From the IMG/VR virus record IMGVR_UViG_3300043478_000034: a stretch of 64,000 nucleotides of DNA; one strand, written 5' to 3'. Position numbers and translations under genes: made by a program. This document shows, one piece after another, positions 26,801-58,735 of the stretch. Position 1 is the stretch's first letter. Each line of letters begins with the position of its first letter. Below the pieces are notes generated by a model. That model did not search any database and had not been told where the DNA came from. It was given only the letters and a program-made list of their open reading frames with translations. Source of the stretch: a virus.

Positions 26801-29619
26801 TAGTACCCGTAGTACTCGCCCTGTTAGTGACTAACTCCCTCGCCGCCCAAGGGACAATCCAGTACTCGTGGCAGGGGCCGGTGGAGATGTTGCCCAGTGC
26901 TATCTCACTTGGGGGCGATACGGGGGAATTTCGATTCAACTCTATCCGCTCATCCAATGACAAGTTCGTTGGCCTACGCGCCCCGCAGACATTAGTCAAC
27001 TCCTACCGTATGCGCTTCCCTGAAGGCCCCGGTTCGCAGGACAACTGCCTCAAGCGCGGCACCGGCGCGGCCATGAGTGACAACATCTACGACTATGCCC
27101 TGTACTTCGGGGCATGTGCCGGGGAGGGGCAGGACTGGATAAGTGCGGTACAGGATGGCGCATCCAATAACCATAACAGTACCGTCTACTCCCCTAACCA
27201 GGGTGACCGTGTGGGTTGGCGTGTGATACGCAGTCGTGGCACTGTACTCGCCCCAGAAAACGTCCTGGTCAACGACTACGTGTCAAGCGAGGAGTACTCA
27301 GCACTAATTGGTGGCAGTGTCTTCCCAGTCTTCGGTGTCAAGGTCATCCGCACCACCAATACCCCCACCTCTATTGGCACGATGGCATTCCAAACTAACG
27401 ACGCCGCCGGGGTGCCGTATAACAAGCTGATCATCAACGATAACGTCTACATCGACAACGGCCACCTTGGCTCGTCCACTATTCGAGTGCCCAAAATCTG
27501 GGTGCATGACTTCGACTGTGACGGCACCGGCTGTCCCGCTGGCGGTGGGTATTGGTTCCGCGATAGCACCGCTGGCTACGTTAGACCAATGACCGCTACT
27601 GATGATGTGCGTACACGGGCTAAGTTCGTATTCGAAGAACCCCAGTTCGGCGTTGTCACCATGGATATACTGGCACAGGTTGGGAATCCCGCCACCAGCA
27701 CAATCTCTATGGCGTTTCGTGACATGGCCGGTGCGGAGATGCTGCGGATGGAACGCCAATTCCTGGGCACCACATCCAACACCGCCACCATGGATATGCA
27801 CTTCATACCCAAGGCCAAGAACACCTACACACTAGGCTCGGCCTCGCCAGCGGATCGCTACTGGTCTGCGTCATACGTCACCAACATGTACGCGGCCACT
27901 ATCCGCCCTGCCGCCGATGCCCTCAGCCGTGTGCGGTCATTTGGCAACTGGGACCCGTCAGCGAGTGATACGTGGAGCCTGGGGGAGACCGATTTTAGAT
28001 GGAAGACCCTGTTTGTCAAGGATCTTGATTGCACTGGTAACTGCGGCCATTGGTACCGCGACGCCACTGCGGGATGGGTGCGGCCAGGGGTGGTCACCGA
28101 CGATGTGCGGACCAGGGCCAAGTTTGTATTCGAAGAACCACAATTCGGCGTAGTGACCATGGACATAAGAGCGGAGGTGGGCAACCCGGCGACATCCACT
28201 ATCGCTATGGCATTCCGCGATATGGGCGGCGGTCAGATGTTGAGACTGGAGCGCCAGTTCCTGGGCACCACCTCCAACAAGGCTACCTTTGAAATGTCCA
28301 TCCTGCCATCGGCGGCGAATACCTATTTCATTGGGGGCGACACCGCTACTGGCTGGTGGTCGCAGTCGTATGTGACCAACATGTACACCGCGTCAGTGCG
28401 GCCCAAGTCGGCGATTCCCAATAACATCAGTGCCTATGCGAACTGGAACCCAAGCGCGACCGACACATGGTCACTGGGGAATGCGGATAGTCTACGCTGG
28501 TTGAAACTGTGGGTGAAAGACATTGATGCATACGGTACCGCAACCGTGGGCAACTTGAACGTAACCAACATCGTATGTACCGGTAGCTGTCCCGGCCAAT
28601 CCTACTGGATGCGCGAACCCACCCTCGGCTATGTGCGCCCATTGACCCGCACCGATGATGTACGCACCGGGGCGAAGTTCGTGTTCGAGGACGCCCTTGG
28701 CGGCGTGATGCAGGACATTATGGCACAGACGGGCAACCCCGCCACACAAACCATATCCATGGCATTTCGCGACAACGCTGGCACCGAGTACCTGCGAATG
28801 GAACGGCGCTTCCTGGGCACCGCATCCAACATCGCCACCATTAGTTTGAACTTCGTACCAAGTGCCGCCAACACCTATAACCTGGGGTCGGCATCACCGG
28901 ATAGGTACTGGTCGCAGTCGCATGTCACCAACATGTACGCGGCGACCATACGGCCCAAGACAGGTACCACCATCGACTCATATGGTGCTCTACTCCCCTC
29001 AGCGGACAACAATGCCAACCTCACCATCGGCAATGCGTCCCAGCGTTGGTACCAAGTGTATGCGATGGGGGTGCAAACGAACGGCATATCCGGTATAAGC
29101 GGTAGTGGGCAAATACTCTCCTATGGGCACTTCATACCGGCGGCAACCTCCACGTATAACCTAGGCGCATCCAGCGTGCGGTGGAACTATGTGTATACCA
29201 GCAACCTGGACACCACGAATTTCTCGGTCTCGGCGCTCACCGTAAATACTCTCACTGTCAATGGGACATCTACCATGCGGCAGATCAACCCATCGACTGG
29301 TGGCACCTATGACTTGGGATCGACATCGTCTGGCACATGGAAGGACATACACCTTAGCGGCAAGGCATACCTTACGGCTATCAAGGCCGAGTCCGGGTCG
29401 AACTTCAACATCGAGTCGCCGTTCCGCCCTGATATCGGCAACAGCCACGACATGGGGCAGTCCAGTGCCCGGTTTAGAACCGTCTATGTGAACACTGTGG
29501 ACTTCAGCAACGGCATCACCGCCAATGGATCGGTGGGCATGTCCAGGACCGCTTACATGAATAACAGCGGGTGCTTTTTGCAGTTCCAACTTGGGGTATT
29601 GATTAACTCGAACTGTTAG
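26758..29619 (+). CDS. tail fibre/spike-like protein with three tandem ~165-aa repeats
   Basis: 953 aa. The block DDVRT(R/G)AKFVFE...GNPAT.TI(S/A)MAFRD...(R/Q)FLGT(T/A)SN...YVTNMY(A/T)A(T/S)(I/V)RP occurs three times. The start is uncertain: a palindrome copy lies at codons 23-26, and in-frame GTG 26881 and ATG 26887 lie downstream. Confidence 0.7.
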   Translation: MDNAIVSRLHAYAIVVPVVLALLVTNSLAAQGTIQYSWQGPVEMLPSAISLGGDTGEFRFNSIRSSNDKFVGLRAPQTLVNSYRMRFPEGPGSQDNCLKRGTGAAMSDNIYDYALYFGACAGEGQDWISAVQDGASNNHNSTVYSPNQGDRVGWRVIRSRGTVLAPENVLVNDYVSSEEYSALIGGSVFPVFGVKVIRTTNTPTSIGTMAFQTNDAAGVPYNKLIINDNVYIDNGHLGSSTIRVPKIWVHDFDCDGTGCPAGGGYWFRDSTAGYVRPMTATDDVRTRAKFVFEEPQFGVVTMDILAQVGNPATSTISMAFRDMAGAEMLRMERQFLGTTSNTATMDMHFIPKAKNTYTLGSASPADRYWSASYVTNMYAATIRPAADALSRVRSFGNWDPSASDTWSLGETDFRWKTLFVKDLDCTGNCGHWYRDATAGWVRPGVVTDDVRTRAKFVFEEPQFGVVTMDIRAEVGNPATSTIAMAFRDMGGGQMLRLERQFLGTTSNKATFEMSILPSAANTYFIGGDTATGWWSQSYVTNMYTASVRPKSAIPNNISAYANWNPSATDTWSLGNADSLRWLKLWVKDIDAYGTATVGNLNVTNIVCTGSCPGQSYWMREPTLGYVRPLTRTDDVRTGAKFVFEDALGGVMQDIMAQTGNPATQTISMAFRDNAGTEYLRMERRFLGTASNIATISLNFVPSAANTYNLGSASPDRYWSQSHVTNMYAATIRPKTGTTIDSYGALLPSADNNANLTIGNASQRWYQVYAMGVQTNGISGISGSGQILSYGHFIPAATSTYNLGASSVRWNYVYTSNLDTTNFSVSALTVNTLTVNGTSTMRQINPSTGGTYDLGSTSSGTWKDIHLSGKAYLTAIKAESGSNFNIESPFRPDIGNSHDMGQSSARFRTVYVNTVDFSNGITANGSVGMSRTAYMNNSGCFLQFQLGVLINSNC
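26823..26835. repeat. GTTAGTNACTAAC palindrome, copy 19/42 (centre G)
   Basis: In frame (LVTN, codons 23-26 of 26758..29619). 22 nt after the stop of 26135..26800. Confidence 0.95.
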
Positions 29620-33797: not shown

Positions 33798-36700
33798 ATG
33801 CCAGCGGAAACCTACGAGAACTTGATCACACGGCTACGCAAGGCCGACGTCAATGGGGATCTAAAGGACTTCACCGATGCGGAGTTAGTCACTAACGCCA
33901 AGCAGTTCGACCCCAAGTCATTTGGAGAAGTCGTCACTCCCGGCGAGGCCGCAGAGAGATCCATCATGGGACGGGGTGGACCAGCGGCAATGATCCCGCC
34001 GCCACCTGCCGCCGCCGTCACTCCCATCCCGGGACAGGACCTAGTACGGGCAGGGCGTGAAGCTGGCGGGTCGTGGTTGCCCGGTGGCGTCAACGATTAC
34101 CTTGACCGCCTCAAGTACTCCCTGGTGGATTCGCCAATTGAAACTGCCCGTGGCGTCGTTGGTGGCGCACTCAAAGGCGTGGGCGATCTGGCCAACCTGG
34201 GCAACGAAGCCTATGCCAAAGCCGCTGGCGTGGTTGGTGGGGATCGCACTGACCGTGTCGTTGGCCCTGCCTTGAAAGCCGCTGGTCAATGGGCATCTGG
34301 TGGCGACCCCAATAATCCTACGTTCGGTACCCAGGCAGCAGAATTAGCAGGTAGTATCGCCCCTGGTGCGATCCCTGGACTAGGCGCGGTGGGTGCCGCC
34401 CAAAAGATAGTCGCACCCGCGAAGTTGCTTACCCGGGCGTTGACTAGTGGTACGGCACAGGGCTTGGCCGAAGGTGCCCGTACATGGCTCACCCCCGAGG
34501 AGGAGCGGGTCAAGGGGCAGCGGGGCGCATTGGCAGAGACCGGGGTGCAGGGCGTCATTGGCGTACTCAGCGATGCGGTCGCCGGTAAACTTGTTGATCG
34601 GCGTCTCATCAACAGTGCAGTACAAGCTGGTCTCGGCTACATTGGTGCCGCCCCCGGGCAGGAGGTCCAGGGCGCGGGTATTCAATGGCTCCTGGCGACA
34701 CTCATGCATGGCAAGCCACCGATGGCACAGCCTGGACCGGGTGCCGGACCCACTGCTGCCGCCACTGCCGCCGGACTCGCCACCCCTGGCCCCGCTGGCC
34801 CCGCACCGGCCACTGGCCACGCTGGTGGTGCCCCCAGCCGCCCAGACGCCGCAACCATGACCGATACGGTACCCAAGCCAGCGGCATTCGGTATGCAGGA
34901 TATTGTCCAGCCCAAAGGCCCACAGGGAGTCATGCCGGGGATTGCCACGCCCCGTCCAGCCGCCGACATGGGTGCGGCACTTGGGACCACTCCCCCCGAT
35001 GTGACCACTGGTGCGGTGCCGCCGCTTGGCCGTCCACTCGGCCCACCGATACCAGAAACTGGCCCAGCCCCAGGCGTGTGGCCACCGCCGCCAGATTACG
35101 GCACGGGGCCGGTACCGGGTATCGAGACAGGGACGCTCCCGCCACCACGGGGGCCACTGGTTGGTCCAGAACCTGCACCGGGGCCGACCCCGGGTACTAC
35201 ACCGGCACCGCTGCCAGCGGATCTCATCGGCGGGTTCGAGACCGCCACGCCAGCACCGGCACGACCGGCACCGGATCTAATGGGGGGCTTCTTCCCCGGG
35301 ACACCACGTCCGCCAGTGGATCAGGGTGGTGGGCCGGGGACGCTGACCAACGACTTCTACCGCGACAAGGACCGGCCCCGTCCCGGGCAACCAGTTGATA
35401 TTGCCAGCTTCTACCAGCCGCCGCCGCGTGTTGGCATGTTGGGTAGCCCAGCAGATGTAGGGGCAGTACCCAGCATGGAGATCGGGACCGGCAACCTTGG
35501 CCAGCGGGGGCCAGCGGGGAGTGATACTGGGTATGTACCACCCGGTGTACCCCCCGGCACGACCCCGGCACCGCCACTGCCGCCCAACCTGCGGGAAGCC
35601 CCACCAGCGCCACCAGCACCATTGCCCACGGGGTTGCCCACGCCCGACAGTCCATTTGGCCGTGCCGTCCCGCCCAGTCCCTGGCCACCATTAGCTCCCC
35701 GCACTGGTACTGGGTTGCCTATGTCGCTGCGGCCAACCACACCGGATTTGCCATATGGGGCGGCATCACCATTGCCTCGTCCCGTGGGTGCAGAGCCACA
35801 GCCATTTGGCCCACAGCCTGCGCCCCGTGTGACTGGTAGGGGTGCGATGGAACCACCGCCACCACTAGCCCCGGTTGATGGCACCCTCTCGCCCACGCAA
35901 CAGCAGGAGATGCTGGACTTGACGGGTGGACGTGAGGCCGCGCCCGGGGTAGGCGAGACCCCAGTAGACCCACGGGATATTGGGTTAGTGACTAACCGGC
36001 CTGCGCCCACTACCCCAGAGGGCATGATTATCGAGGACATTGACCGGCCACAGGGTGATACTGAGACCGCCAATGCCCCAGTGGGGGGTGCCGAGCGACG
36101 CCGCCGTCTCCTCGCTGAACGTACCAAGGCCAAGTTCGCCGACCCCAACTTTGTTCCCCCCACTAAAACCCCATCCATGCTGGTGGGCAAAGGCGGACAG
36201 GTAAAAAAAAAAGTAGACGCTAGCGGTGATGGCGATGTCGTACAGCGCAACTCCACCCTGACCAACGCCTACGATGTGGCCAATCAACTTGCGGCACTGC
36301 GCGACCCCGAGTCCCAGGCGTTACTCGCCGAGTTGCAGCAACTACTCGCGGAGGCCGAGCGGCTTGCCAAGGCATCCCAGGCCAGGGCCAAGAAATCAGG
36401 CTGGGACCCACTCGACCCACTTGGCATCAACGGTGGCCGGAATGGGCCGATGCTCAACCCCGAGGAGACACTACAGTTTACTGATGAGGTGCTGCAAGAT
36501 GTCAAGACGCAGTTCAAGAAACGTCCTGGCCACACCAATACCCTGTATGTGAACCGGGAGGCTATGGATGTGATTGACTCCCTGTTCGGCGGCAATATGA
36601 TAGACTCCACCACGCATGGTGCCAACATCAAGCCCCATGGCCGCGACATGATCCAGGACCGGCTGATGGAACGGTTCCACATGATGAATGGCCTGTCCCC

Positions 36701-39700
36701 CAAGGCCAAGAACGCAGTGGTGGATTTTGCGACAAGCATCGCCGATGCGTGGGATACGATTGGCCATGGCGAGTCGCTGAAACTCGCAGTGGCCAAGGAA
36801 GGGAAGGTATTCAAGGGGCTACGTGACACCGTCTACGAGGAGTGGGCGCACGGGGGCCAGAACAAGGTCAAGATCAACCCGGATGATGTCAAGACGATCA
36901 CCAGCTCCCCGGAGTATCAAGCGGCCAGGAAGAACCTCGACCCCGGCTATACCGATAGTGACGCATTTGATGAGATCACCGCCAAGGCCATGTCCAACAG
37001 GGATCTCAAGCTGTCCATACGGCAGAACCTGACACTGGTGGAAATGTACCGGGACGCTATAGAAAGTGCCGGTGGGACTACTGCCATCAACGAGTTCACC
37101 CTACTGAAACCGGATACAAGGGAGGTATTCCAACGTGGCAAATCAGCCGCCGAAGTCGCAACCGCAGCAGAGGCCAGGGAGTCTGCGGCCCTCGCCGCCA
37201 AGGAAGCAGACGCAACCGCAGCCCTCGCAGCCCAGCGCACCACGCAGCCCCCGGGTGATGTCGGCCCCGCCGGGGTGGGACGAGGAGGCGATCAACAACT
37301 TCAACCGGGCGCAACTGGCGGCAGAAAAGGCAAGGCTGCTAGGGGAGGACCCGGACGAGGCGTTCCGCCAGAGTCTACTCCAGTCGTGGGGGAAGGAGGG
37401 CCAGGACCTGGACGCCCCGCAGGGGGAGACATTGCCCCAGGAACCCCCGCCCCAGTAGAGTCGCCGTTGAGGGCGCGTAAAGGTGAGGGGGAGGGTGAGT
37501 TAGTCACTAACCGGGGCAAGCAGGGGTTTAGTCTAGGTGCCCTTGAATCCAGCGATGCCAGCCCACATTCAATGGGATTCCTGGGGTCGCAATACGCCAG
37601 TGAGCAGGCACGCAAACTCTGGGACCATCTCAATACCCCCACTGATGCCAATGGGCGACCCATACCGCGACCGTCCAACTCCCCGTGGGCGACTGACGCA
37701 GAATACAACCGCGTCATGGGTGCATCTGTCGCAGAGCGTGAGGCGGCGGCAAAAGCGGGGAAACAAAGCTGGGCGAAGCGGGTATTCAATCAAGCGGCCC
37801 TGGATAAGTTTGTGTCGCGGCGGGTATCTACGACACGGGCCGTGCAGACGATCCAGAACCGCATTGCCAAGAAGACCGGGGAGACGCCATTACCGGGGGA
37901 CAAGGCGCGGGTGATATTCGATGACTCCACTGCGGCTAATGAAGAAGCCGAGACCCGTACCCGGGGTGTGATCAAAGGGATTATCAACAAGCACCTCAAG
38001 GGTCTCGATGGCAATGACGCGCAGACCAAGATGGAGCACGCTGGCATCTATGCCCAGGCATTGCAGGAGAGACAAGTAGAGATCAACACGCAGGGCAAGA
38101 AGGAATGGAAACGCCTAGTTGACGAGGAGAAGGCTGGGGCAGTGACCGCGAAACCCAGTGGCGACACCTATGCTGCCATTGACAAAGCCGCCGACGCTGG
38201 TGACGTCAATGCACGCATGATGCGTAACAACCATATGGCGATACTGGGCATGACCAAGTACCGGGAGGGGCTGGCGACGGGTGCCGTGGGTGAGCATTAC
38301 AAGCGGCCACTGGAGACGCTGGAGAGGGAGATTACGCAGGGGAAGAAATATCACCAGCCGATAGTGGACGATATACAGGCATACTTTAGGTCAATGCTAG
38401 ACGAGTCTGTTGCCGATGGGCGGCTGCGGCCAGAGTTGCGGGATACCCTCGTTCGCATGTACCCCGACTATGTACCTGTTGGCCGCATCATGGACGACAT
38501 CAACAGCAACGTGGAGTGGGGTAGTAGTCAACCCACTGGGCATCTCGCCCAACAGCGTAGTGTACGTATACTTGGTGGCGATAGTGATGCGCCTATCGAG
38601 GACATGTGGAAGTCGCTGGTCACCAAGACGTTCCACAACACCAAGGAAGCGAGGCGTAACACTGTAGGCAAGGAACTGTACCGCGTCTCCAAGGAGTACC
38701 AGGGGTGGGAGGGGTTTATTGAACGGGTCAAGCCCGAGGATGTCAAGGCGGGTAAGTATACTGGCAAGAACAAGCTGGACGAGACCAATAGCATTACGTT
38801 CCTGGAGAATGGCGAACCAGTTACCCTCAAGGTCGATCCCCTTATCGCCGCCGCCGCACGCAATCTCAAGCCTAATCAAATGGGGGGCCTGCTGGAGTTT
38901 GCGCGGGGATTTGCCCGGGTACTGCGTGGCACTGCGACAGGCGCGGCCAACCCATTATTCCAAATGGGCAACCTCGCCATGGACATTGGGACTAATGTGA
39001 TGAACACTGGGTTTAGCACCCTGTACAAGAAGCCGCTCAGTGCGACGTGGGATGTGGTCAAGGATACGGTAGGCAAGCACTCCGCTGACCTCGCTGAGTT
39101 GCGCTCCCACGGTGGCGCGTTCACCAGCATTGAGGCGTACCGGGATAACCCACTGCCTCAAATCAAATGGGAGGTGGCCCGGTCCCGCGAGGGTGCCAAG
39201 GCTAAGACCAAGGCTATCGCCAAGTATGCGTGGGAGAACAAGAGGGCGGCGGGATCGCAGTTCATTGCCGCTGTCGAGGACATGGCGGCTAAGACCGAGC
39301 TAATGGGACGACTGCGCGTATACACTACGGTGCGCGACCAAGCATTGGCTAAGGGGATGAGTAGGCAACAGGCTAACATTGCTGGGCTGGATGCGGCCCG
39401 TAACCAGATGGCCAACTACAGGCAAAGCGGCAGTGAGATGCAGAACTGGAATGCGGTGACCCCGTATCTCAATGCCGGGATACAGAACATTGCATCCTCA
39501 GTGGAAGCGGCACGCACGAATCCAGAACAGTTTGCACTGCGTGTGGCGTCCTATGTCGTGATGCCAACTATTGCTACCACTATCTACAACCTGTCCAACA
39601 AGGATAGACAGGAGGCTTACCTCGACGCCCAGGAGCACAACCTGGACGACAACTGGAGTGTGGTGAGACCGGGGGTGGTGGACGAGAATGGGTCGCGGCA

Positions 39701-40682
39701 GATGCTCAAGTGGCCCATACCCGGGCAGTATTCGCCACTGGTACGGGCGACACGTTACGCTATAGAGCAGGCGTGGCGGTATGCGCCTGATACGTTCAAT
39801 AGCATCGCGCAACAAATGGGGTTTGACACCAAGGCCAACGACTTCACTCCCCAGCTTGGCCCCGAGTACGACCACAAGCTACTGCCCAAGGTGGAGGGTC
39901 CGCTGGATGTGCTGACCGGGGTGGGGAACAAGGTTGCGCCGCAGGTATTCAAGGCAGTTACAGACATTACTAGTGGGGTACACCAGTTTAGCGGACGGCC
40001 ATTTGTACGCAAGGACCTGGAGAAGTTACCGTCTGAGTATCAGGTGGACAAGGATACGAGCAGGGCAGTGACGGCATTGGCACGGGCCGGGGGCGGATCG
40101 CCAGCATACCTCCAGGGGGCAATTACGTCACTAGGCGGACAGGGCATACCGCTGGGATTGAATGTCGCAGACTATGCTGTGCAGGGAGTGGGGCAACTAT
40201 TTGGGCGGGAACCTAGTGGGAAGCCGGGTGGGTTGTCGTTCGCCACCGGGTTGGAGAACAGGTTTCTAGCGGGGCGCGGCGGCAGGCTGGATACGCTGGA
40301 TAGGGACGACGTGCGGCGGCAGCAGGACGAGACGTATAAGGAACTGGCTGGTCAACTTAGCCCTGCCCAGGAGGAGATGCTGCGGCAGAATCGTACCAGC
40401 GTGCCGCCAGTGACTATCCAGGAGGGCGATACCCAGGAGGTGTTGGCATTGCGGCAGAAGGTCAAGGGCGTAATGTACAGTGCTCACTTGCAGTCGCTAT
40501 TGGATGACCCGGACTATGCCACGCTTGACCCGGCGACCAGGAAGGAAGTGATCAAGGAGCGCATGGATGCGGCGAGTCATTGGCTGAGTACACAGTCGAG
40601 TGCGAGTGGGAAACTTGATCCCGATGAGCGTGTCAACTACTGGCAGGGGGTTATGGCGCAGGTCGAGGCGGCGTACCGGTAG
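33798..40682 (+). CDS. giant virion-associated protein (2294 aa) with long Pro-rich linkers
   Basis: Uninterrupted ORF whose ATG abuts the upstream TAA. Low-complexity Pro/Gly tracts lie at about 34715-35984 and 37230-37499. It contains three in-frame palindrome copies. No enzymatic motif was recognised. Confidence 0.7.
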   Translation: MPAETYENLITRLRKADVNGDLKDFTDAELVTNAKQFDPKSFGEVVTPGEAAERSIMGRGGPAAMIPPPPAAAVTPIPGQDLVRAGREAGGSWLPGGVNDYLDRLKYSLVDSPIETARGVVGGALKGVGDLANLGNEAYAKAAGVVGGDRTDRVVGPALKAAGQWASGGDPNNPTFGTQAAELAGSIAPGAIPGLGAVGAAQKIVAPAKLLTRALTSGTAQGLAEGARTWLTPEEERVKGQRGALAETGVQGVIGVLSDAVAGKLVDRRLINSAVQAGLGYIGAAPGQEVQGAGIQWLLATLMHGKPPMAQPGPGAGPTAAATAAGLATPGPAGPAPATGHAGGAPSRPDAATMTDTVPKPAAFGMQDIVQPKGPQGVMPGIATPRPAADMGAALGTTPPDVTTGAVPPLGRPLGPPIPETGPAPGVWPPPPDYGTGPVPGIETGTLPPPRGPLVGPEPAPGPTPGTTPAPLPADLIGGFETATPAPARPAPDLMGGFFPGTPRPPVDQGGGPGTLTNDFYRDKDRPRPGQPVDIASFYQPPPRVGMLGSPADVGAVPSMEIGTGNLGQRGPAGSDTGYVPPGVPPGTTPAPPLPPNLREAPPAPPAPLPTGLPTPDSPFGRAVPPSPWPPLAPRTGTGLPMSLRPTTPDLPYGAASPLPRPVGAEPQPFGPQPAPRVTGRGAMEPPPPLAPVDGTLSPTQQQEMLDLTGGREAAPGVGETPVDPRDIGLVTNRPAPTTPEGMIIEDIDRPQGDTETANAPVGGAERRRRLLAERTKAKFADPNFVPPTKTPSMLVGKGGQVKKKVDASGDGDVVQRNSTLTNAYDVANQLAALRDPESQALLAELQQLLAEAERLAKASQARAKKSGWDPLDPLGINGGRNGPMLNPEETLQFTDEVLQDVKTQFKKRPGHTNTLYVNREAMDVIDSLFGGNMIDSTTHGANIKPHGRDMIQDRLMERFHMMNGLSPKAKNAVVDFATSIADAWDTIGHGESLKLAVAKEGKVFKGLRDTVYEEWAHGGQNKVKINPDDVKTITSSPEYQAARKNLDPGYTDSDAFDEITAKAMSNRDLKLSIRQNLTLVEMYRDAIESAGGTTAINEFTLLKPDTREVFQRGKSAAEVATAAEARESAALAAKEADATAALAAQRTTQPPGDVGPAGVGRGGDQQLQPGATGGRKGKAARGGPGRGVPPESTPVVGEGGPGPGRPAGGDIAPGTPAPVESPLRARKGEGEGELVTNRGKQGFSLGALESSDASPHSMGFLGSQYASEQARKLWDHLNTPTDANGRPIPRPSNSPWATDAEYNRVMGASVAEREAAAKAGKQSWAKRVFNQAALDKFVSRRVSTTRAVQTIQNRIAKKTGETPLPGDKARVIFDDSTAANEEAETRTRGVIKGIINKHLKGLDGNDAQTKMEHAGIYAQALQERQVEINTQGKKEWKRLVDEEKAGAVTAKPSGDTYAAIDKAADAGDVNARMMRNNHMAILGMTKYREGLATGAVGEHYKRPLETLEREITQGKKYHQPIVDDIQAYFRSMLDESVADGRLRPELRDTLVRMYPDYVPVGRIMDDINSNVEWGSSQPTGHLAQQRSVRILGGDSDAPIEDMWKSLVTKTFHNTKEARRNTVGKELYRVSKEYQGWEGFIERVKPEDVKAGKYTGKNKLDETNSITFLENGEPVTLKVDPLIAAAARNLKPNQMGGLLEFARGFARVLRGTATGAANPLFQMGNLAMDIGTNVMNTGFSTLYKKPLSATWDVVKDTVGKHSADLAELRSHGGAFTSIEAYRDNPLPQIKWEVARSREGAKAKTKAIAKYAWENKRAAGSQFIAAVEDMAAKTELMGRLRVYTTVRDQALAKGMSRQQANIAGLDAARNQMANYRQSGSEMQNWNAVTPYLNAGIQNIASSVEAARTNPEQFALRVASYVVMPTIATTIYNLSNKDRQEAYLDAQEHNLDDNWSVVRPGVVDENGSRQMLKWPIPGQYSPLVRATRYAIEQAWRYAPDTFNSIAQQMGFDTKANDFTPQLGPEYDHKLLPKVEGPLDVLTGVGNKVAPQVFKAVTDITSGVHQFSGRPFVRKDLEKLPSEYQVDKDTSRAVTALARAGGGSPAYLQGAITSLGGQGIPLGLNVADYAVQGVGQLFGREPSGKPGGLSFATGLENRFLAGRGGRLDTLDRDDVRRQQDETYKELAGQLSPAQEEMLRQNRTSVPPVTIQEGDTQEVLALRQKVKGVMYSAHLQSLLDDPDYATLDPATRKEVIKERMDAASHWLSTQSSASGKLDPDERVNYWQGVMAQVEAAYR
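33884..33896. repeat. GTTAGTNACTAAC palindrome, copy 23/42 (centre C)
   Basis: In frame (LVTN, aa 30-33 of the giant ORF). Confidence 0.95.
35984..35996. repeat. GTTAGTNACTAAC palindrome, copy 24/42 (centre G)
   Basis: In frame (LVTN, aa 730-733 of the giant ORF), at the end of the Pro-rich tract. Confidence 0.95.
37499..37511. repeat. GTTAGTNACTAAC palindrome, copy 25/42 (centre C)
   Basis: In frame (LVTN, aa 1235-1238 of the giant ORF), at the end of the second low-complexity tract. Confidence 0.95.
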
Positions 40683-40688: not shown

Positions 40689-40701
40689 GTTAGTGACTAA
40701 C
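40689..40701. repeat. GTTAGTNACTAAC palindrome, copy 26/42 (centre G)
   Basis: 6 nt after the stop at 40682. Confidence 0.95.
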
Positions 40702-40706
40702 CGCTG

Positions 40707-40715: not shown

Positions 40716-40775
40716 TGATGGACCGCTGGCCGGGAGATACTGAACGTTCTACATCCCTGCCAGCGGTAAGAAGGG

Positions 40776-45262: not shown

Positions 45263-45603
45263 TGTTTCTCGCTTTCTACTAACTTAAACTTAATCCCCAA
45301 CCTGTTGGCAATCAGGCCCATGACCCGCAGGTTGACCAACTCCCCGTCTAGCATTCGAGATATGGTGGTCACGTGTACCCGTGTGAGGCGAGACAGTGAC
45401 GCTATTGACCCCATACGTTCCACTGCACGGGTGGCAAACTGGGCGACCTCCAGTGATAGCCAGCGTATCTCTATGTCATCCGGGTGGACGAGACGTGTAC
45501 CTATGGGGCGGCCCTTACGTGTTGGTGATGGTGGTGGTACGGTGCTACTGGCATTTACTGTGGCCACCATTTGGCGGATTGATCTACCGCGCGTTCCAGT
45601 CAT
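45259..45603 (-). CDS. HTH (XRE-like) DNA-binding protein
   Basis: 114 aa. HTH segment: SIASLSRLTRVHVTTISRMLDGELVNLRVMGLIANRLG. Confidence 0.6.
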   Translation of the reverse strand: MTGTRGRSIRQMVATVNASSTVPPPSPTRKGRPIGTRLVHPDDIEIRWLSLEVAQFATRAVERMGSIASLSRLTRVHVTTISRMLDGELVNLRVMGLIANRLGIKFKLVESEKQ

Positions 45604-47053
45604 ACTCTCTCACTTTCCATAGACTGTCTAAGTCCTTGCCTATCGTGTAGTACACCCGGCAGGTTGCGTCGGCGTCCCGGCAGGCGTACCATTTGGCGAG
45701 CACTGGGTCTACGTGTCGCAGTCCCCGTTGTGGCATGTCACTACCTACGTGATCCAACAGCCACTCCCGCCAGTACCATTGCTTCTTCTTTGTCTCTATC
45801 GCGGCCTGTGTCGCTGCCGCCGGTAGTTCCTCCTTGTGTTCTCGCCAGCGTTTCCATGGGTCGTACTTGGGATTCGTGGTCATGGATCGCAGTATCCCAT
45901 CGAGTACTGCCACCATGGGGTTCTCACTTCTCTTAGGCTTCAAGTACTTGCCGGTCTTGTCGCTGATCCGGTTAGTGACTAACTGCGGCAGGTGATCAAC
46001 TACCTCCACTATCCACTCCTTGACTTTGCGTTTACTAGCTTGGTTGGTTACCTCCATGTATGACTGCATCTTCATGCCGCAATGCCTGCGTGCCAGTGGC
46101 TTGAGACCTTGTGACATCGCACGCCTGTAGGCGATCTGCATTGTATCTGTTACCTTGGCCCAGTCCACGTGTATGCCCAGTGCTCTAAATGCCGCCACCT
46201 CGACGATAGCATTTTGCATCACCAGCACCTTGCACTCGTTGAGTAGCCTTTGCAAATACCTCCTCTTGCTGTCAATGCGTTGGGTCGAGTCCCCATGCTC
46301 CTGGACCATCACCCCCACCCCCGGCACCTGGGTGAATTGCCATGAGTACAATGCCCCATACTCGCTCTCACTGTCGATGAACACCGGGCGATTCCCCTTG
46401 TGCCCACCGTCCCAATCCTCTAGATATACATACTCCTCCTCACCGGCCCACTCATCGACCGGCTCACTATACCTACCGGCCAACCACTTGCCGACATTGC
46501 TAAACCCCTCCTCGATGGCGTCGATACGATTCGACACATGCAACCCCAGTGCCGGGTGATAGGTGGGCATGATGTCATACGGCCCCCTGCCCAGTATCGT
46601 CCCGTGGTAATGCCGCCCATGATCACTCTCCAGGTCTACGGGGTTGCCGTCCACTATACTAGATGCAGTGCCGCCCATAAGTACGACCAACCTGGGTGAC
46701 AGGCGGTCTAACTCACGCGCCAGGAAGTGCATCGAGCACGCACCTATTTCCTTCACGTTGGGGGTGCGGTTCGACGGTGGGCGGCACTTACACACGTTAG
46801 TGATGTATACCTCGTCACGGGTCAACTTGGCCAGGGGCAGGTAGTGGTTATCTAGTTCCATACCTGCATTCCCCTGGAATGGCTCGTCCCGCTCCTGCCC
46901 ACCGGGGGCCTCGCCAACGAGTACGACATCTGCATCGGCTGGCCCACAGGGCGGGACGACGTGACTGTACTGGCTGGGGTCGAGGCTAGCGATGCATTGA
47001 CTGCAACGTGCGCCCACCCCCCTGGTTAGATACGGCCAAAAGTCTACCGCCAT
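45584..47053 (-). CDS. uracil-DNA glycosylase (family 4-like) fused to a 3'-5' exonuclease domain (N-terminal part of a split PolA)
   Basis: 489 aa. UDG segments VLVGEAPGGQE...FQGNAG and YHPALGL. DnaQ-like Exo I segment VFIDSESEYG. One in-frame palindrome copy. Confidence 0.75.
   Translation of the reverse strand: MAVDFWPYLTRGVGARCSQCIASLDPSQYSHVVPPCGPADADVVLVGEAPGGQERDEPFQGNAGMELDNHYLPLAKLTRDEVYITNVCKCRPPSNRTPNVKEIGACSMHFLARELDRLSPRLVVLMGGTASSIVDGNPVDLESDHGRHYHGTILGRGPYDIMPTYHPALGLHVSNRIDAIEEGFSNVGKWLAGRYSEPVDEWAGEEEYVYLEDWDGGHKGNRPVFIDSESEYGALYSWQFTQVPGVGVMVQEHGDSTQRIDSKRRYLQRLLNECKVLVMQNAIVEVAAFRALGIHVDWAKVTDTMQIAYRRAMSQGLKPLARRHCGMKMQSYMEVTNQASKRKVKEWIVEVVDHLPQLVTNRISDKTGKYLKPKRSENPMVAVLDGILRSMTTNPKYDPWKRWREHKEELPAAATQAAIETKKKQWYWREWLLDHVGSDMPQRGLRHVDPVLAKWYACRDADATCRVYYTIGKDLDSLWKVREYDWNAR
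45971..45983. repeat. GTTAGTNACTAAC palindrome, copy 30/42 (centre G)
   Basis: In frame (LVTN) in the UDG-exonuclease gene. Confidence 0.95.
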
Positions 47054-49714: not shown

Positions 49715-50180
49715 TTAGTCTGTAGTCCTCTCGTCCGTAGCGTTGGTAGTAGTAGTATTCCATCATGGCGTTGTAGGCAATGGCCAACAGGTGCGCCTCC
49801 ATGGTTTGAAAGTGGTCATGCTTCTCGCCGGTGATGTACTGCTTGAGATGCGCCGCCATGTGGTTGACAGGACTCTTCTCACCGGCGAGGCGGGAGTCGG
49901 CGTATTGTTGGACACTGCCGTACTTGACACTGGCGTAGGCGGCAATGCGTGCCATGCCGTGGATGAAGTCCCAATTAAGCTGGTGGTAGATGTAGTCAAC
50001 CGGGACACGTTTCGCCTCCACCGGCTGGTGGTCTACCACGCCTGTATCCACCACCCCCCACGTCCCCTCGCACATGTCCTCGTCATTAGGGGCGAGGTGG
50101 TCGCGGTATAGTAGCTGGCCCTCCTTCTCGACACAGGCTACTATCGTCTTGCATACGTGGCACGCAGCCATCTTGGTCAT
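49692..50180 (-). CDS. dATP/dGTP diphosphohydrolase-like (MazG-related) protein
   Basis: Track ORF trimmed to ATG 50180 (TGGAGAACCACCGC). FIHGMARIAAYASVKYG...NHMAAHLKQYITGEKHDHFQTMEAHLLAIAYNAMM resembles the phage dNTP pyrophosphohydrolase N-terminal domain (from memory). Confidence 0.5.
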   Translation of the reverse strand: MTKMAACHVCKTIVACVEKEGQLLYRDHLAPNDEDMCEGTWGVVDTGVVDHQPVEAKRVPVDYIYHQLNWDFIHGMARIAAYASVKYGSVQQYADSRLAGEKSPVNHMAAHLKQYITGEKHDHFQTMEAHLLAIAYNAMMEYYYYQRYGREDYRLNVDPRVE

Positions 50181-50536
50181 GCGGTGGTTCTCCAGGTTAC
50201 GTCGATCATTCCTCTCTCCTTCATCTTGGTGTATACTCCTTTGACTAGCTCTCTCGTACAACCGACGGCGTCGGCGATGTCGGACTGTGACATATACCCC
50301 ACATCGCCGGGTTTCAAGTGGTGGTTAGTGACTAACAGTTGGTACGCCATGTCACTCTTGCTCCCTTTGAGGAACCCAATACGTGCCGGTCCCTTGGGGC
50401 GACGTTTGATGCCCTTCATCTTGAGCACCCGGTAGACGACACTGTAGCCTACGCCCAACTGCTTGGCAATTTGACCCACTGTCGGCTGCGCTGGGCCGTT
50501 GTACAGGTCAATGACTGTTGTGGCAAAGTTACTCAT
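50177..50536 (-). CDS. DNA-binding protein with two HTH-like segments
   Basis: Track ORF trimmed to ATG 50536. First segment PTVGQIAKQLGVGYSVVYRVLKMKGI. Second segment MSQSDIADAVGCTRELVKGVYTKMKERG. An in-frame palindrome copy lies between the two. Confidence 0.55.
   Translation of the reverse strand: MSNFATTVIDLYNGPAQPTVGQIAKQLGVGYSVVYRVLKMKGIKRRPKGPARIGFLKGSKSDMAYQLLVTNHHLKPGDVGYMSQSDIADAVGCTRELVKGVYTKMKERGMIDVTWRTTA
50324..50336. repeat. GTTAGTNACTAAC palindrome, copy 33/42 (centre G)
   Basis: In frame (LVTN), between the two HTH segments of 50177..50536. Confidence 0.95.
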
Positions 50537-53410: not shown

Positions 53411-53719
53411 TTACGTTTCCCGCCGGTTAGTGACTAACGTGTGGCACTTCGGGCACCGGGTATCCACCAGTACTTGTACATGACAATGGCGTATGATAAC
53501 GGGCGGGGCCGTGGTTGCAACGATCTGCCCAATGCACGACACGCCCTCGGCGATGTGGTCCGGGTTGGTGTGGTACTCATTACATTTAGCATCGAGCCAG
53601 CGTTCGGCATCCTCCCTATGCGAGAAGGTGCTGGACTTGCCTACCACCATGGGTTCCTTGTACCCCATGCGGACGGCCTGTTTACTTATCGCCCTCCAGT
53701 AGGCAATGTAGCTAGACAC
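53411..53719 (-). CDS. hypothetical Cys-containing protein
   Basis: Track ORF 53411..53776 trimmed to in-frame GTG 53719 (ATGGAGG SD 6 nt upstream). It has a C-terminal CPKC motif. A palindrome copy encodes LVTN 4 codons before the stop. Confidence 0.4.
   Translation of the reverse strand: MSSYIAYWRAISKQAVRMGYKEPMVVGKSSTFSHREDAERWLDAKCNEYHTNPDHIAEGVSCIGQIVATTAPPVIIRHCHVQVLVDTRCPKCHTLVTNRRET
53426..53438. repeat. GTTAGTNACTAAC palindrome, copy 35/42 (centre G)
   Basis: In frame (LVTN) near the 3' end of 53411..53719. About 30 nt upstream of the P4 -35 box. Confidence 0.95.
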
Positions 53720-57499: not shown

Positions 57500-58735
57500 C
57501 TATTCCACGTCATCAGCAGGCAGGCAGTGCTTCTCGAACTGCTTGACCACTTCGGGCATGACCAGCGACCCGTCCATGAACTTGGACATTGCGGCCCCAA
57601 GTTTGGCAATGTGAGGATTCTCGTCGTTGATCAACTCCTCACACAGGTCGTCCAGGTGCTTGAGCTTGAGCGTCATGGACTTGGCATCGGCGCTGATACC
57701 CGCACCCTTACCCGCCGCCTCAGCCACCGCTGCCGCCGCCTTGCTGGAGAGTTTGCCTTCCTTCTCCAGCTTGATCGCTGCCTTCTTGAGATCACCCTTG
57801 GATACGGCAATGACCTCCTCGACTTCCTCGACTTCGGCACCACCCTCACCGTTCTCGCTGGCCTTGGCCGCGCGTTTCTTTGCCAGCTTGCGCTTACGTT
57901 CCAGGTTGTCCAAGCGTATCTGATCAGGCGTCCTGGTGTCTGGCGCATTCGGGTCGCGCTTGTTGTCGATCTTCTTCTTGGCATTGGCGTCGAAGGCTTC
58001 CTCGAATACCAGCTTGATCTGGTCCTCGGTGAGGAATCCGCTGGCCGCGAGACCACCCATGTCACGGGCGGCATCGGCACCGACTTCTTTGTTGTGGACT
58101 TTCTTCAGGATGTCCTTGTCGAGGAGACCCATGCGGAGGGTGCGGTAGATGGTGGCCTTGCTGGTCTCGGTGTATCGAGCCAGCTTCTCCACGTCCTTGC
58201 CACAGGCACCCACTCCCTTCTCGCCAGCCTTGGGTACCTTCACATCCCAGTCCAGGTCGTCGGCCAGGGCGAGGAATGCATTGAGCATCTCGGGTGCGGT
58301 GAGGCTACGGTTGGCGAGGTTGGCGAGGATCGCACCCTGGACAGTGGTGATGCGGTCCTTGCCCTTGCCGGGGTTCCACAGGATGACGGGTACAGTTTTG
58401 AAGCCCAGTGATTTCGCGCAGCGGAAGCGGCGGCGACCGTCTACGATTGCAAACTTACCTTCCGCGAAATGTTCCCCATCTTCCTCGGTTGTCGGCCTGA
58501 TGGTCAGTGCCTGCAACACTTGGCCAGCCTGTTCGATGGCGTGGCGCAGCATCTCTAGTTTGTTATCGCCTTCCATGCGGCCAGGGTTGTCAAGCAATAC
58601 CAAGTCCTTGACGGGGATCTGCTGTGCTGATTGAATCACCAGCGGCGTTGCGGTGACATCGACACGGGTTCCCTTCGCCACAACGGCGGCGGGGGTGACG
58701 TTCTTCTTAACGGTTGCGGTCTGTTCGGTTGCCAT
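57500..58735 (-). CDS. ParB-like nuclease-domain protein
   Basis: 411 aa. N-terminal ParB/Srx fold segments VKDLVLLDNPGRM and FAIVDGRRRFRCAKSLGFKTVPVILW. Central HTH-like ARYTETSKATIYRTLRMG. Lys/Glu-rich tail. Confidence 0.7.
   Translation of the reverse strand: MATEQTATVKKNVTPAAVVAKGTRVDVTATPLVIQSAQQIPVKDLVLLDNPGRMEGDNKLEMLRHAIEQAGQVLQALTIRPTTEEDGEHFAEGKFAIVDGRRRFRCAKSLGFKTVPVILWNPGKGKDRITTVQGAILANLANRSLTAPEMLNAFLALADDLDWDVKVPKAGEKGVGACGKDVEKLARYTETSKATIYRTLRMGLLDKDILKKVHNKEVGADAARDMGGLAASGFLTEDQIKLVFEEAFDANAKKKIDNKRDPNAPDTRTPDQIRLDNLERKRKLAKKRAAKASENGEGGAEVEEVEEVIAVSKGDLKKAAIKLEKEGKLSSKAAAAVAEAAGKGAGISADAKSMTLKLKHLDDLCEELINDENPHIAKLGAAMSKFMDGSLVMPEVVKQFEKHCLPADDVE

What the first reader, a model, noticed from the sequence alone, without database searches (positions are those of the whole stretch)
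33884..37511. In-gene copies of the palindrome are always read L-V-T-N and sit at linker or domain boundaries
Only one of the three frames of the motif is open in either orientation: TTA GTN ACT AAC. All 10 intragenic perfect copies use that frame and encode LVTN. In the 2294-aa ORF, copies at 35984 and 37499 lie exactly where the two long Pro/Gly low-complexity tracts end (...PRDIG-LVTN-RPAPT and ...GEGEGE-LVTN-RGKQG). A third copy lies at codon 30. Other copies fall between the two HTH segments of 50177..50536, just before the Walker A motif of the UvrD-like helicase (61300), after the exonuclease core of 45584..47053 (45971), at codons 23-26 of the 953-aa fibre (26823), and within a few codons of two C-termini (13826, 53426). 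Two one-mismatch copies in 4633..5640 also read LVTN. My inference is that the motif is selected at the DNA or RNA level and tolerated in proteins only in its single open frame. The pattern fits gene fusion or module shuffling at motif sites. The giant ORF may be three or four ancestral genes joined at former junction motifs.
Basis: partly seen in the sequence, partly recalled or inferred. Interest (0 to 1): 0.62.

Follow-up and report, generated by a model that had tools for sequence, protein, structure and literature searches.

The report
In-gene copies of a phage palindrome
An uncultured 66-kb phage carries 43 copies of a 13-base DNA palindrome; the ten copies inside genes must read Leu-Val-Thr-Asn because the other two frames contain stop codons, they are kept by selection on the DNA, and they are not scars of gene fusion, although one marks a point where relatives have swapped a protein module.

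Summary
GTTAGTNACTAAC occurs 42 times in the window (0 expected). Ten copies lie in ORFs and all read LVTN. That reading is forced, because the other two frames hold TAG and TAA on either strand.

Every LVTN in three complete related genomes is encoded by the motif or a one-mismatch derivative. It uses the rarest Leu codon. In-gene copies stay letter-perfect far more often than synonymous drift allows (10 of 14 comparisons against about 10% expected). Selection therefore acts on the DNA.

Four "in-gene" copies are junction copies overlapped by the first or last 30 codons or fewer of a gene. Six are truly internal. "Linker or domain boundary" holds for the giant 2294-aa polyvalent protein and the inter-HTH linker. 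It fails for the helicase (between Q motif and Walker A) and the exonuclease (a beta-strand between ExoII and ExoIII).

No relative splits a gene at an LVTN. The only ORF break in relatives is at an A9/A10 slippery tract. Copy 3 of the giant ORF is an exact mosaic junction: about 97% identity upstream and 57% downstream against L047.

The most likely function is a binding site for the phage's ParB/KorB-like protein; this is inferred, not shown. This scan has noted similar ParB-linked phage palindromes on other DNA. Cluster O mycobacteriophages are a published analogue.

The parts
33884..33896 (+). In-gene copy 1 of the palindrome, codons 30-33 (LVTN) of the giant ORF. It is effectively a junction copy: the giant ORF's ATG abuts the stop of the upstream gene, so there is no intergenic space.
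   Evidence: Conserved in L002, L045 and L049. Absent in G001, which has LVRG there.
35984..35996 (+). In-gene copy 2, codons 730-733, at the C-terminal end of the roughly 430-aa Pro/Gly-rich tract.
   Evidence: Perfect in L002, L045, L047, G001 and G002 while the flanks carry indels.
37499..37511 (+). In-gene copy 3, codons 1235-1238, at the end of the second Gly/Pro tract. It is an exact mosaic junction.
   Evidence: Window versus L047: about 97% nucleotide identity over 360 nt upstream and 57% over 450 nt downstream. The break is at the 3' edge of the motif. G002 lacks about residues 808-1230, and that deletion ends within 15 nt of this site, which reads LVTT there.
33798..40682 (+). Giant 2294-aa ORF, a polyvalent-type large virion protein with a widely conserved C-terminal core (about residues 1515-2175).
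   Evidence: Pfam LPD38 33 bits (cut-off 27) and phrog_9854. 1560 homologues, of which the 150 listed are 532-2905 aa with variable N-terminal parts.
36201..36218 (+). Poly-A slippery tract GTA(10)GTAG. It is in frame here. Relatives with A9 end the ORF at TAG and continue in the -1 frame.
38270..38282 (+). Decayed 'site 4' (LATG, residues 1492-1495). It is a perfect motif at the homologous codons in L045, L046 and G001.
26823..26835 (+). Copy at codons 23-26 of the 953-aa tail fibre gene, 23 nt after the stop of the overlapping upstream gene. It is a junction copy read as the end of a hydrophobic N-terminal leader.
   Evidence: Perfect in G001 and G002.
13826..13838 (+). Copy 6 codons before the stop of a 129-aa gene. 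It is a junction copy met in the open frame.
53426..53438 (-). Copy 8 codons before the stop of a conserved small gene. It is a junction copy met in the open frame.
   Evidence: Perfect in G001 and G002.
45971..45983 (-). Internal copy in the UDG-3'-5' exonuclease gene, residues 358-361.
   Evidence: It forms the first strand of a beta-hairpin (AF2 pLDDT about 90) between ExoII and ExoIII, in the most variable stretch of a 40-sequence alignment. Only homologues of 75% identity or more have LVTN. None is split there.
61300..61312 (-). Internal copy in the UvrD/Rep-like helicase gene, residues 95-98.
   Evidence: It aligns to 'FVTG' of E. coli Rep, between the Q motif (GQQxAV) and Walker A, inside domain 1A. 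G001 has a synonymous one-mismatch variant that still reads LVTN.
50324..50336 (-). Internal copy in the linker between the two HTH motifs of a small DNA-binding protein.
   Evidence: Pfam HTH_7 at 36-68 and Crp-type HTH at 108-142. The ORF is continuous with LVTN in G001 (perfect) and G002 (TTG synonymous variant).
59355..59367 (-). Internal copy at codon 86 of a 130-aa ORF that has no homologue in G001 or G002.
4827..4839 (+). One-mismatch copy (ACT->ACC) that reads LVTN in the 335-aa gene. Each relative carries a different decayed version, so a perfect ancestor is likely.
5118..5130 (+). One-mismatch copy that reads LVTN. There is no motif at this position in relatives.
57500..58735 (-). 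ParB_N plus HTH protein, the candidate binder of the palindrome. This role is inferred.
   Evidence: Pfam ParB_N 34.2 bits (cut-off 26.3). phmmer hits to ParB 6t1f and Noc 7ng0, with an aligned GxRRxRA box and HTH region. NCBIfam ParB/Noc hits fall below their curated cut-offs.

Best explanation
The ten in-gene copies are ordinary members of a genome-wide family of 13-bp palindromes that is selected as DNA.

Shown:
1. Two of the three frames on each strand hold TAG or TAA. Any ORF that overlaps a copy can therefore only read it as TTA-GTN-ACT-AAC, which is LVTN.
2. The peptide is a by-product. Every LVTN in three genomes is motif-encoded with rare codons.
3. In-gene copies stay letter-perfect far above the synonymous-drift expectation, while the free centre base and the flanks vary.
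4. Four of the ten are junction copies that an ORF start or end happens to overlap. ORFs running into junction copies split about evenly among the three frames: 6 stop at TAA, 4 stop at TAG, 4 stop just before the motif and 2 read through as C-terminal LVTN.
5. The six internal copies sit where four residues are tolerated. These places are low-complexity linkers of the giant polyvalent protein, an inter-HTH linker, a lineage-variable beta-hairpin of the exonuclease, and a helicase segment where homologues naturally read F-V-T-G.
6. In-gene copies turn over. Site 4 and the 4827 site were lost. The exonuclease copy is confined to close relatives, consistent with a gain.
7. The copies are not fusion scars.
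8. Copy 3 is a recombination joint. Because the motif has one open frame, exchange at a copy keeps the reading frame.

Inferred: the selective agent is a sequence-specific dimeric DNA-binding protein. The best candidate is the phage's ParB_N-HTH protein (57500-58735), acting like KorB at its OB operators or Noc at its scattered sites. Internal copies would then add binding or loading sites inside long genes. The confidence given (0.72) is for the shown core reading of the in-gene copies; the ParB-type binder specifically is about 0.35-0.4.
For: - Frames and counts.
- LVTN count of 10-12 against 0.3 expected, all motif-encoded, with TTA at 5.9% of Leu codons.
- Same-codon baseline of 57-59%, 10 of 14 comparisons perfect, p about 7e-8.
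- Positional conservation with variable flanks and centre base.
- Junction geometry and stop-codon usage.
- Helicase mapping.
- Exonuclease alignment and AF2 model.
- ORFs continuous across LVTN in relatives.
- Gains and losses.
- Mosaic junction at copy 3.
- Indels bracketed by motif copies.
- ParB-like gene.
- KorB OB core TTTAGCGGCTAAA (13 bp, 6-N-6) shares TTAG...CTAA with this motif (PMC11790492).
- The RNA hairpin is only -1.1 kcal/mol and the centre base shows no strand bias.
- The same motif occurs at junctions next to a ParB-like homologue of 62% identity.
Against: - No binding data exist.
- The ParB-like protein reaches only the Pfam domain threshold, not the NCBIfam ParB/Noc/RepB cut-offs.
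- Its AF2 model was unusable, with pLDDT 46.
- The motif is invariant in all relatives found, so co-variation between protein and site could not be tested.
- Sharing 4 of 6 half-site bases with OB has a chance probability of about 0.04, which is only suggestive.
- The tight placement of many copies 1-30 nt upstream of SD/ATG would also fit an RNA or translation role.
- In the giant ORF all internal copies (2, 3 and site 4) sit just upstream of a module start. Simple 'tolerance' does not fully explain this.
Confidence: 0.72

Rival explanations
1. Fusion-scar model. Internal LVTN copies are former intergenic junction motifs. The giant ORF and other motif-bearing genes arose by fusing neighbouring genes at those junctions.
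For: - In the giant ORF, copies 2, 3 and site 4 each lie immediately upstream of the next module, as junction copies lie upstream of the next gene.
- The middle module is absent in G002, and the deletion ends at copy 3.
- Copy 3 is a mosaic junction.
Against: - No relative has a stop/start at any LVTN. Seven assemblies read through them.
- The only break is at the A9/A10 tract.
- The middle module has no stand-alone homologue.
- The widespread C-terminal core begins about 280 residues after copy 3.
- The helicase copy lies between the Q motif and Walker A, and the exonuclease copy between ExoII and ExoIII. Fusion there would split a catalytic domain.
- The LVTN columns are substitutions, not 12-nt insertions.
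Confidence: 0.08
2. RNA-level element. The transcribed motif (5-bp stem, 3-nt loop) is recognised by a phage or host RNA-binding protein or nuclease. It would drive mRNA processing, translational coupling or initiation. In-gene copies would mark internal processing or internal initiation sites that yield shorter protein isoforms.
For: - Many junction copies sit 1-30 nt upstream of SD/ATG on the coding strand in both gene orientations.
- In the helicase an in-frame ATG follows the motif by 4 codons.
- After copy 2 a conserved PE(G/E)(M/L) stretch provides an SD-like sequence plus a start codon.
Against: - The hairpin is only -1.1 kcal/mol.
- No compensatory or G-U variation was seen. The recurrent one-mismatch variant gives an A-C mismatch in RNA in 7 of 9 cases.
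- Copies also lie between convergent gene ends (41608) and in the ORF-poor region at 2800-4343.
- The centre base has no coding-strand bias.
- The SD-like sequences after copy 2 abut the start codon, and that spacing is unfavourable.
Confidence: 0.15
3. Recombination-joint model. The primary role of the palindrome is to provide short identical sequences, or a nuclease or recombinase target, for modular exchange between co-infecting relatives. In-gene copies are frame-locked joints that allow in-frame domain swapping in the polyvalent protein.
For: - About 9 of 19 distinct indels have an edge at a copy.
- Four are bracketed by two copies with one copy at the empty site: the PEP-CTERM gene 40689/41608 versus L001, L001 5337/5536, G002 50924-51646, and the window 47850/48339.
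- There is an exact homology break at copy 3.
- HSP ends lie within 20 bp of a copy 5-fold more often than random.
- The genome encodes an ERCC4-type nuclease.
Against: - About half of the indels have no copy nearby.
- Copies coincide with gene junctions, where indels occur anyway, and this confound was not removed.
- Thirteen bp is short for homologous recombination.
- Strong purifying selection on every copy, including the helicase and exonuclease copies where no exchange is seen, is better explained by a function in each infection cycle.
Confidence: 0.15
4. Peptide-level model. LVTN is a functional protein motif, for example a protease processing site or a linker cap, and it is selected as amino acids.
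For: - One-mismatch derivatives are often synonymous and keep LVTN (TTA->TTG, ACT->ACC).
- Copies 2 and 3 cap low-complexity tracts.
Against: - All LVTN use the same rare codons plus a fixed preceding G.
- 32 of the 42 copies are non-coding.
- The same 13-mer is conserved in both orientations.
- Lost sites change the peptide freely, to LATG, LDTG, LVRG or LVTK.
Confidence: 0.03

Closest known systems
Cluster O mycobacteriophage 17-bp repeats (5'-TGTTCGGNNNCCGAACA; Cresawn et al. 2015, PMC4351075)
   Same: - More than 30 copies per genome, with invariant inverted arms and a variable centre.
- Copies are scattered genome-wide. About a third are intergenic, about a third lie near 5' gene ends and about a third lie inside genes.
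- The function is unknown.
- Those phages also encode a ParB-like domain protein.
   Different: - Different sequence and geometry (7-N3-7 versus 6-N1-6).
- Different host and phage lineage.
- Here the density is higher (1 per 1.5 kb).
- Here the copies are tightly linked to stop/SD/start, and the in-built TAG/TAA stops lock the reading frame.
KorB and its OB operators on IncP plasmid RK2 (McLean et al. 2025, PMC11790492)
   Same: - A 13-bp palindrome with 6-bp arms and one centre base (TTTAGCGGCTAAA). It shares TTAG...CTAA with GTTAGTNACTAAC.
- Multiple copies are dispersed over a mobile genome.
- The binder is a ParB-family CTPase with an HTH. A ParB_N-HTH gene is present here.
   Different: - RK2 has about a dozen sites (from my own knowledge), against 43 here.
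- No KorA or ParA partner was identified.
- Binding is untested.
- The phage protein is only a domain-level ParB relative.
Noc binding sites and ParB parS sites; dispersed SopB centromere sites IR1-IR4 of prophage-plasmid N15 (from my own knowledge and scan notes)
   Same: Palindromic sites for ParB-family proteins are scattered around a genome. Some lie inside genes.
   Different: Those systems serve nucleoid occlusion or partition in replicons that are stably maintained. This phage has direct terminal repeats, and no ParA or integrase was detected.
Stoperators of Cluster A mycobacteriophages (L5, Bxb1; from my own knowledge, and contrasted in PMC4351075)
   Same: Dozens of 13-14-bp sites sit in short intergenic gaps near stop and start codons throughout the genome.
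   Different: Stoperators are asymmetric, oriented with transcription and bound by the immunity repressor of a temperate phage. The motif here is a perfect palindrome with no orientation.
Polyvalent proteins of phages and conjugative elements (Iyer et al. 2017, from my own knowledge; Pfam LPD38)
   Same: A giant multi-module protein with a conserved core, variable shuffled N-terminal modules and low-complexity linkers.
   Different: To my knowledge, DNA palindromes embedded at module boundaries and a poly-A slippery site splitting the ORF have not been described for this class.

Membership tests
Dispersed ParB/KorB-type binding sites (parS / OB-like) | Short perfect palindrome present in multiple dispersed copies | tested here: met
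   43 copies with 6-N-6 geometry.
Dispersed ParB/KorB-type binding sites (parS / OB-like) | A ParB-family protein (ParB_N CTPase domain with GxxRxxA box, plus HTH) encoded by the same element | tested here: met
   Pfam ParB_N 34.2 bits against a cut-off of 26.3. The alignment to ParB 6t1f and Noc 7ng0 covers the 'DGRRRFRCA' box and the HTH region. NCBIfam ParB/Noc/RepB family cut-offs are not reached, so membership holds at domain level only.
Dispersed ParB/KorB-type binding sites (parS / OB-like) | The protein binds the palindrome specifically | not testable with these tools
   This needs EMSA or ChIP-seq. The AF2 model of the protein was too poor (pLDDT 46) for structural comparison.
Dispersed ParB/KorB-type binding sites (parS / OB-like) | Site sequence co-varies with the protein's recognition helix among relatives | tested here: inconclusive
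   The motif is identical in every relative, including the contig with a ParB-like protein of 62% identity. There is no variation to correlate.
Cluster A stoperators | Asymmetric site oriented with the direction of transcription | tested here: not met
   The motif is a perfect palindrome and its centre base has no strand bias.
Cluster A stoperators | Temperate phage with an immunity repressor and an integrase | tested here: inconclusive
   No integrase or repressor family was found among the genes scanned, but many ORFs have no family hit.
   ORFs are continuous across LVTN in G001, G002, L001, L002, L045, L046 and L047. None of the 39 exonuclease homologues is split, and there is no gap at the LVTN columns.
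   Met for giant-ORF copies 2, 3 and site 4 and for the HTH linker. Not met for the helicase (inside domain 1A) or the exonuclease (a beta-strand between ExoII and ExoIII).
Polyvalent protein (giant ORF) | Large polyvalent-protein-associated domain within a multi-module protein of more than 1000 aa | tested here: met
   LPD38 33 bits against a cut-off of 27 at residues 1939-2127. The conserved core occurs in 1560 proteins, of which the 150 listed are 532-2905 aa.
Programmed -1 frameshift / slippage site (side finding) | Slippery heptamer X XXY YYZ in the 0 frame, with the downstream ORF open in -1 and lacking its own start | tested here: met
   In G001 and G002, A AAA AAG is followed by TAG. 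In G002, 92 conserved codons in the -1 frame precede the first start codon. A9 is reproduced in the independent assembly L024. Frameshifting itself is not shown.

The most novel reading that the evidence does not exclude
The palindrome has two roles. It is a ParB/KorB-type clamp-loading or operator site at very high density (1 per 1.5 kb). Because its built-in TAG/TAA stops leave one open frame, it is also a frame-locked recombination joint. Any exchange between two in-gene copies is automatically in frame. The phage lineage can therefore shuffle domains of its giant polyvalent virion protein, and whole genes at junctions, through one 13-bp element. Copy 3 is a caught example.
Probability: 0.15. 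Interest if true: 0.7.

Novelty: new member of a known kind. Interest (0 to 1): 0.4.

Why it matters
- The finding separates a trivial point from the informative ones. 'Always LVTN' is forced by stop codons. The informative points are DNA-level selection that overrides codon preference inside essential genes, turnover of in-gene sites, and one exact in-frame mosaic junction.
- It gives a clean natural example of a DNA-binding-site family imposing a tetrapeptide on unrelated proteins at permissive positions.
- It adds an uncultured phage lineage with 27-43 copies per complete genome to the short list of phages with genome-wide palindromes (Cluster O). The function of those palindromes is still unknown.
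- It names a testable binder, the ParB_N-HTH protein.
- If the ParB/KorB link holds, it extends CTP-dependent clamp regulators to apparently lytic phage genomes.

Tried and rejected
- Megablast of the giant-ORF region and tblastn of the portal against 50,697 cultured phage records found nothing. tblastn of the ParB-like protein gave one weak Vibrio phage 'nucleoid occlusion protein' hit. There is no cultured relative.
- The middle module of the giant ORF searched on its own found no homologue, so 'stand-alone ancestral gene' has no support.
- AF2 of the ParB-like protein with a 7-sequence alignment gave pLDDT 46. No fold search was attempted on it.
- A literal search for the motif in the paper library gave 0 papers.
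Transcript-end mapping at the copies was therefore impossible.
- I considered internal translation starts after in-gene copies. Only the helicase has a nearby in-frame ATG. The SD-like sequence after copy 2 abuts its start codon. I rejected this as a general rule.
- I considered a regular-spacing rule for copies. It is rejected: a 5.4-kb gap exists in the 1592-aa fibre gene, and several genes of 2 kb or more have no copy.
- Enrichment of HSP ends near copies is confounded by gene junctions. I did not treat it as decisive.

Full report
**What the window is.**
The window is nearly all of a 65,851-bp IMG/VR phage genome with direct terminal repeats. GC content is about 56%. Plus-strand virion genes run from about 4.1 to 41.5 kb and minus-strand replication genes from about 41.6 to 64 kb. 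No cultured phage is related.

Relatives from viral and metagenome collections:
- Two complete genomes of about 75% nucleotide identity: G001 (67,145 bp) and G002 (64,917 bp).
- Many partial contigs.

**The motif.**
GTTAGTNACTAAC occurs 42 times in the window and 43 times in the genome, against 0.00-0.01 expected. G001 has 39 copies and G002 has 27. Every partial relative carries the same 13-mer. So does a contig whose ParB-like protein is only 62% identical.

At homologous positions the twelve arm bases stay identical. The centre base changes freely, and the flanks accumulate substitutions and indels.

Thirty-two window copies are non-coding, at 6.0 per kb against 0.17 per kb in coding DNA. 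They sit at gene junctions. The upstream ORF often ends in the motif's own TAA or TAG, or at TA+G. The next SD/ATG follows within 1-30 nt, in both gene orientations.

**Check of the observation.**
The frame argument is correct. GTT AGT NAC TAA and (x)TAG are closed, and TTA GTN ACT AAC is open, on both strands.

Ten copies lie in credible ORFs and read LVTN. The two one-mismatch copies in 4633..5640 also read LVTN. That all copies use one frame is a logical necessity, not evidence in itself.

The informative test is the converse. In the window, G001 and G002 the tetrapeptide LVTN occurs 10, 12 and 10 times, against about 0.3 expected from composition. Every occurrence is encoded by the motif or by a one-mismatch derivative. 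This holds although TTA is the rarest Leu codon (5.9%) and ACT is a minor Thr codon (20%). Control tetrapeptides occur 0-2 times each.

Between these genomes, an identical amino acid keeps the same codon only 57-59% of the time. Protein-level constraint alone would therefore keep TTA, ACT, AAC and the preceding G in about 10% of comparisons. Observed: 10 of 14 comparisons are perfect (p about 7e-8).

**Two classes of in-gene copy.**
Four copies are junction copies overlapped by the end of a gene:
- 13826: 6 codons from a stop.
- 53426: 8 codons from a stop.
- 26823: codon 23. It lies 23 nt past the stop of the overlapping upstream gene, inside a conserved hydrophobic N-terminal leader.
- 33884: codon 30 of the giant ORF, whose ATG abuts the upstream stop.

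Among ORFs that run into a junction copy, 6 stop at the TAA, 4 stop at the TAG, 4 stop at TA+G just before it, and 2 read through as C-terminal LVTN. That is roughly one third per frame, as expected if the motif is placed without regard to frame.

Six copies are truly internal: 35984, 37499, 45971, 50324, 59355 and 61300.

**Are internal copies at linkers or domain boundaries?**
The answer is mixed.
- **Giant ORF:** yes. The Pro/Gly-rich tracts (about residues 300-730 and 1150-1235) end at copies 2 and 3.
- **Giant ORF, site 4:** a fourth site is perfect in L045, L046 and G001 and has decayed to LATG in the window at 38270-38282. It lies about 20 residues before the N-terminal edge of the widely conserved core.
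- **HTH protein:** yes. The copy lies in the linker between the two HTH motifs, and the ORF is continuous in G001 and G002.
- **Helicase:** no. LVTN aligns with 'FVTG' of E. coli Rep, between the Q motif (GQQxAV) and the Walker A loop. That is inside domain 1A.
- **UDG-exonuclease protein:** no.
  - The copy lies between ExoII (D285) and ExoIII (Y456, D460), so 'after the exonuclease core' is wrong.
  - In a confident AF2 model (pLDDT 89) it is the first strand of a beta-hairpin.
  - It is the most variable stretch of a 40-sequence alignment and lies next to an insertion hot spot.
  - Only homologues of 75% identity or more carry LVTN.
  - The LVTN columns are substitutions, not an inserted 12-mer.
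  - No homologue is split there.

The common denominator is local tolerance to four residues, not domain boundaries as such.

**Gene fusion at motif sites?**
This is not supported. Seven related assemblies read straight through every LVTN of the giant ORF.

The only ORF break in relatives is at a poly-A tract about 75 codons after copy 2:
- The window, L002, L045, L046 and L047 have GTA(10)GTAG, which is in frame.
- G001, its independent near-identical assembly L024, and G002 have A9. The 0 frame then ends VKKK-TAG and the protein continues in the -1 frame.
- In G002, 92 conserved codons in the -1 frame precede the first possible start codon. A -1 frameshift or transcriptional slippage at the dnaX-like A AAA AAG is therefore likely real in that clade.

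If the giant ORF was ever two genes, the seam is this tract and not an LVTN.

The middle module has no stand-alone homologue. The C-terminal core shared with 1560 proteins starts about 280 residues after copy 3.

**Module shuffling at motif sites?**
This is partly supported.
- Across all loci I resolved about 19 distinct indels. About 9 have an edge at a copy.
- Four are bracketed by two copies, with a single copy at the empty site:
  - the PEP-CTERM gene between 40689 and 41608, absent in L001;
  - a 186-bp cassette in L001;
  - a 721-bp cassette in G002;
  - the 47850/48339 cassette in the window.
- About half of the indels have no copy nearby, and copies coincide with gene junctions. This evidence is therefore suggestive only.

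Inside the giant ORF the evidence is sharper. The window and L047 are about 97% identical over 360 nt upstream of copy 3 and 57% identical over 450 nt downstream. The break is at the 3' edge of the motif. The window's C-terminal part is instead near-identical to L045. G002 lacks about residues 808-1230, a deletion running from the poly-A tract to within 15 nt of copy 3. The window and L045 diverge abruptly just after the poly-A tract.

The middle module therefore behaves as a swappable cassette, bounded by the slippery tract on one side and copy 3 on the other. Because the motif has one open frame, exchange at a copy preserves the frame.

**Turnover.**
In-gene copies are gained and lost.
- Copies 1 and 3 are absent in G001 (LVRG; no motif).
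- Site 4 is lost in the window and in L001.
- The 4827 site is a different decayed version in each of three genomes, which implies a perfect ancestor.
- Several one-mismatch derivatives are synonymous (TTA->TTG, ACT->ACC). The peptide can outlive the DNA site.

**What selects the DNA?**
This part is inferred.
- An RNA hairpin would have 5 bp and only -1.1 kcal/mol. No compensatory or wobble pattern is seen.
- The centre base has no coding-strand bias.
- Copies also lie between convergent gene ends and in an ORF-poor control region.
- A strict dyad with a free centre fits a dimeric DNA-binding protein.

The genome encodes a 411-aa ParB_N-HTH protein (57500-58735):
- It passes the Pfam domain threshold.
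- It aligns to ParB and Noc structures across the arginine-rich CTP box and the HTH.
- It does not reach the NCBIfam family cut-offs.

ParB-family proteins are the classic users of dispersed palindromes. The KorB operator is also a 13-bp 6-N-6 palindrome (TTTAGCGGCTAAA) and shares TTAG...CTAA with this motif. The chance of sharing at least that much is about 0.04.

Cluster O mycobacteriophages have 34 copies of a 17-bp palindrome, a third of them in genes. They also encode a ParB-like protein, and the function is unknown. Notes from this scan report similar ParB-linked palindromes in other phages. I reached the ParB lead before reading those notes, and they are not independent evidence.

I put about 0.35-0.4 on the ParB-type binder specifically, and about 0.72 on the core reading of the in-gene copies.

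**Limits.**
- There are no expression or binding data.
- The ParB-like AF2 model failed.
- The motif does not vary among the relatives found, so co-variation could not be tested.

**Verdict.**
The DNA-level selection inference is supported. The gene-fusion reading is not supported. Module exchange at a motif copy is demonstrated once inside the giant ORF. This is a new member of a known kind (genome-wide phage palindromes), and it comes with a concrete, testable candidate binder.

Noticed in passing
window 36201-36218; L030:6262; L034 minus strand 6424: A conserved poly-A slippery tract lies inside the giant ORF. It is A10 (in frame) in the window clade and A9 in G001, L024 and G002. In the A9 genomes the 0 frame stops at TAG and the -1 frame carries the conserved C-terminal 1000-1400 aa. 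In G002, 92 of those conserved codons precede any start codon. This is a likely programmed -1 frameshift or transcriptional slippage at the dnaX-like A AAA AAG. It is also a mosaic junction.
   Followed up: partly
window 57500-58735 (-): This gene encodes a ParB_N plus HTH protein with an arginine-rich GxRRxRA-like box. It is flanked by palindrome copies at 57384 and 58765. It is the candidate binder of the palindrome.
   Followed up: partly
window 49692-50261 (-): There is a weak Pfam match (24.9 bits, below the cut-off of 27) to the N-terminal domain of dATP/dGTP diphosphohydrolase (MazZ/DatZ-type). This hints at nucleotide-pool manipulation or modified DNA bases.
   Followed up: no
window 40689-41620: The PEP-CTERM-type gene 40776-41477 is bracketed by palindrome copies at 40689 and 41608. 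In relative L001 the whole 925 bp is absent and a single copy remains (L001:3736).
   Followed up: yes
window 47830-48500: A 670-bp cassette holds gene 47872-48321, a palindrome copy and the tRNA-like stretch at 48356-48481. It is absent from G001, L001, L024, L025, L026 and L027, which have one palindrome copy at the empty site.
   Followed up: partly
window 14372-14404: This is an insertion hot spot immediately 3' of the copy at 14372. Four relatives (L004, L013, L015, L019) carry a 619-bp insertion here, and L006 carries a different 292-bp insertion at the same point.
   Followed up: partly
window 38270-38282: This is a decayed palindrome site: G CTG GCG ACG GGT, read LATG. The homologous codons are a perfect motif in L045, L046 and G001, and an intermediate LDTG in L001.
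   Followed up: yes
window 26758-26835: The 953-aa fibre gene begins with a conserved hydrophobic, signal-peptide-like leader (MD.....AIVVPVVLALLVTN) that overlaps the end of the upstream gene. This is unusual for a tail fibre.
   Followed up: no
window -1 position of junction copies: The base before the motif on the coding strand is A in 20 of 32 junction copies and never C, and -2 is T in 12 of 32. This reflects TA+G stop codons that borrow the motif's first G.
   Followed up: yes
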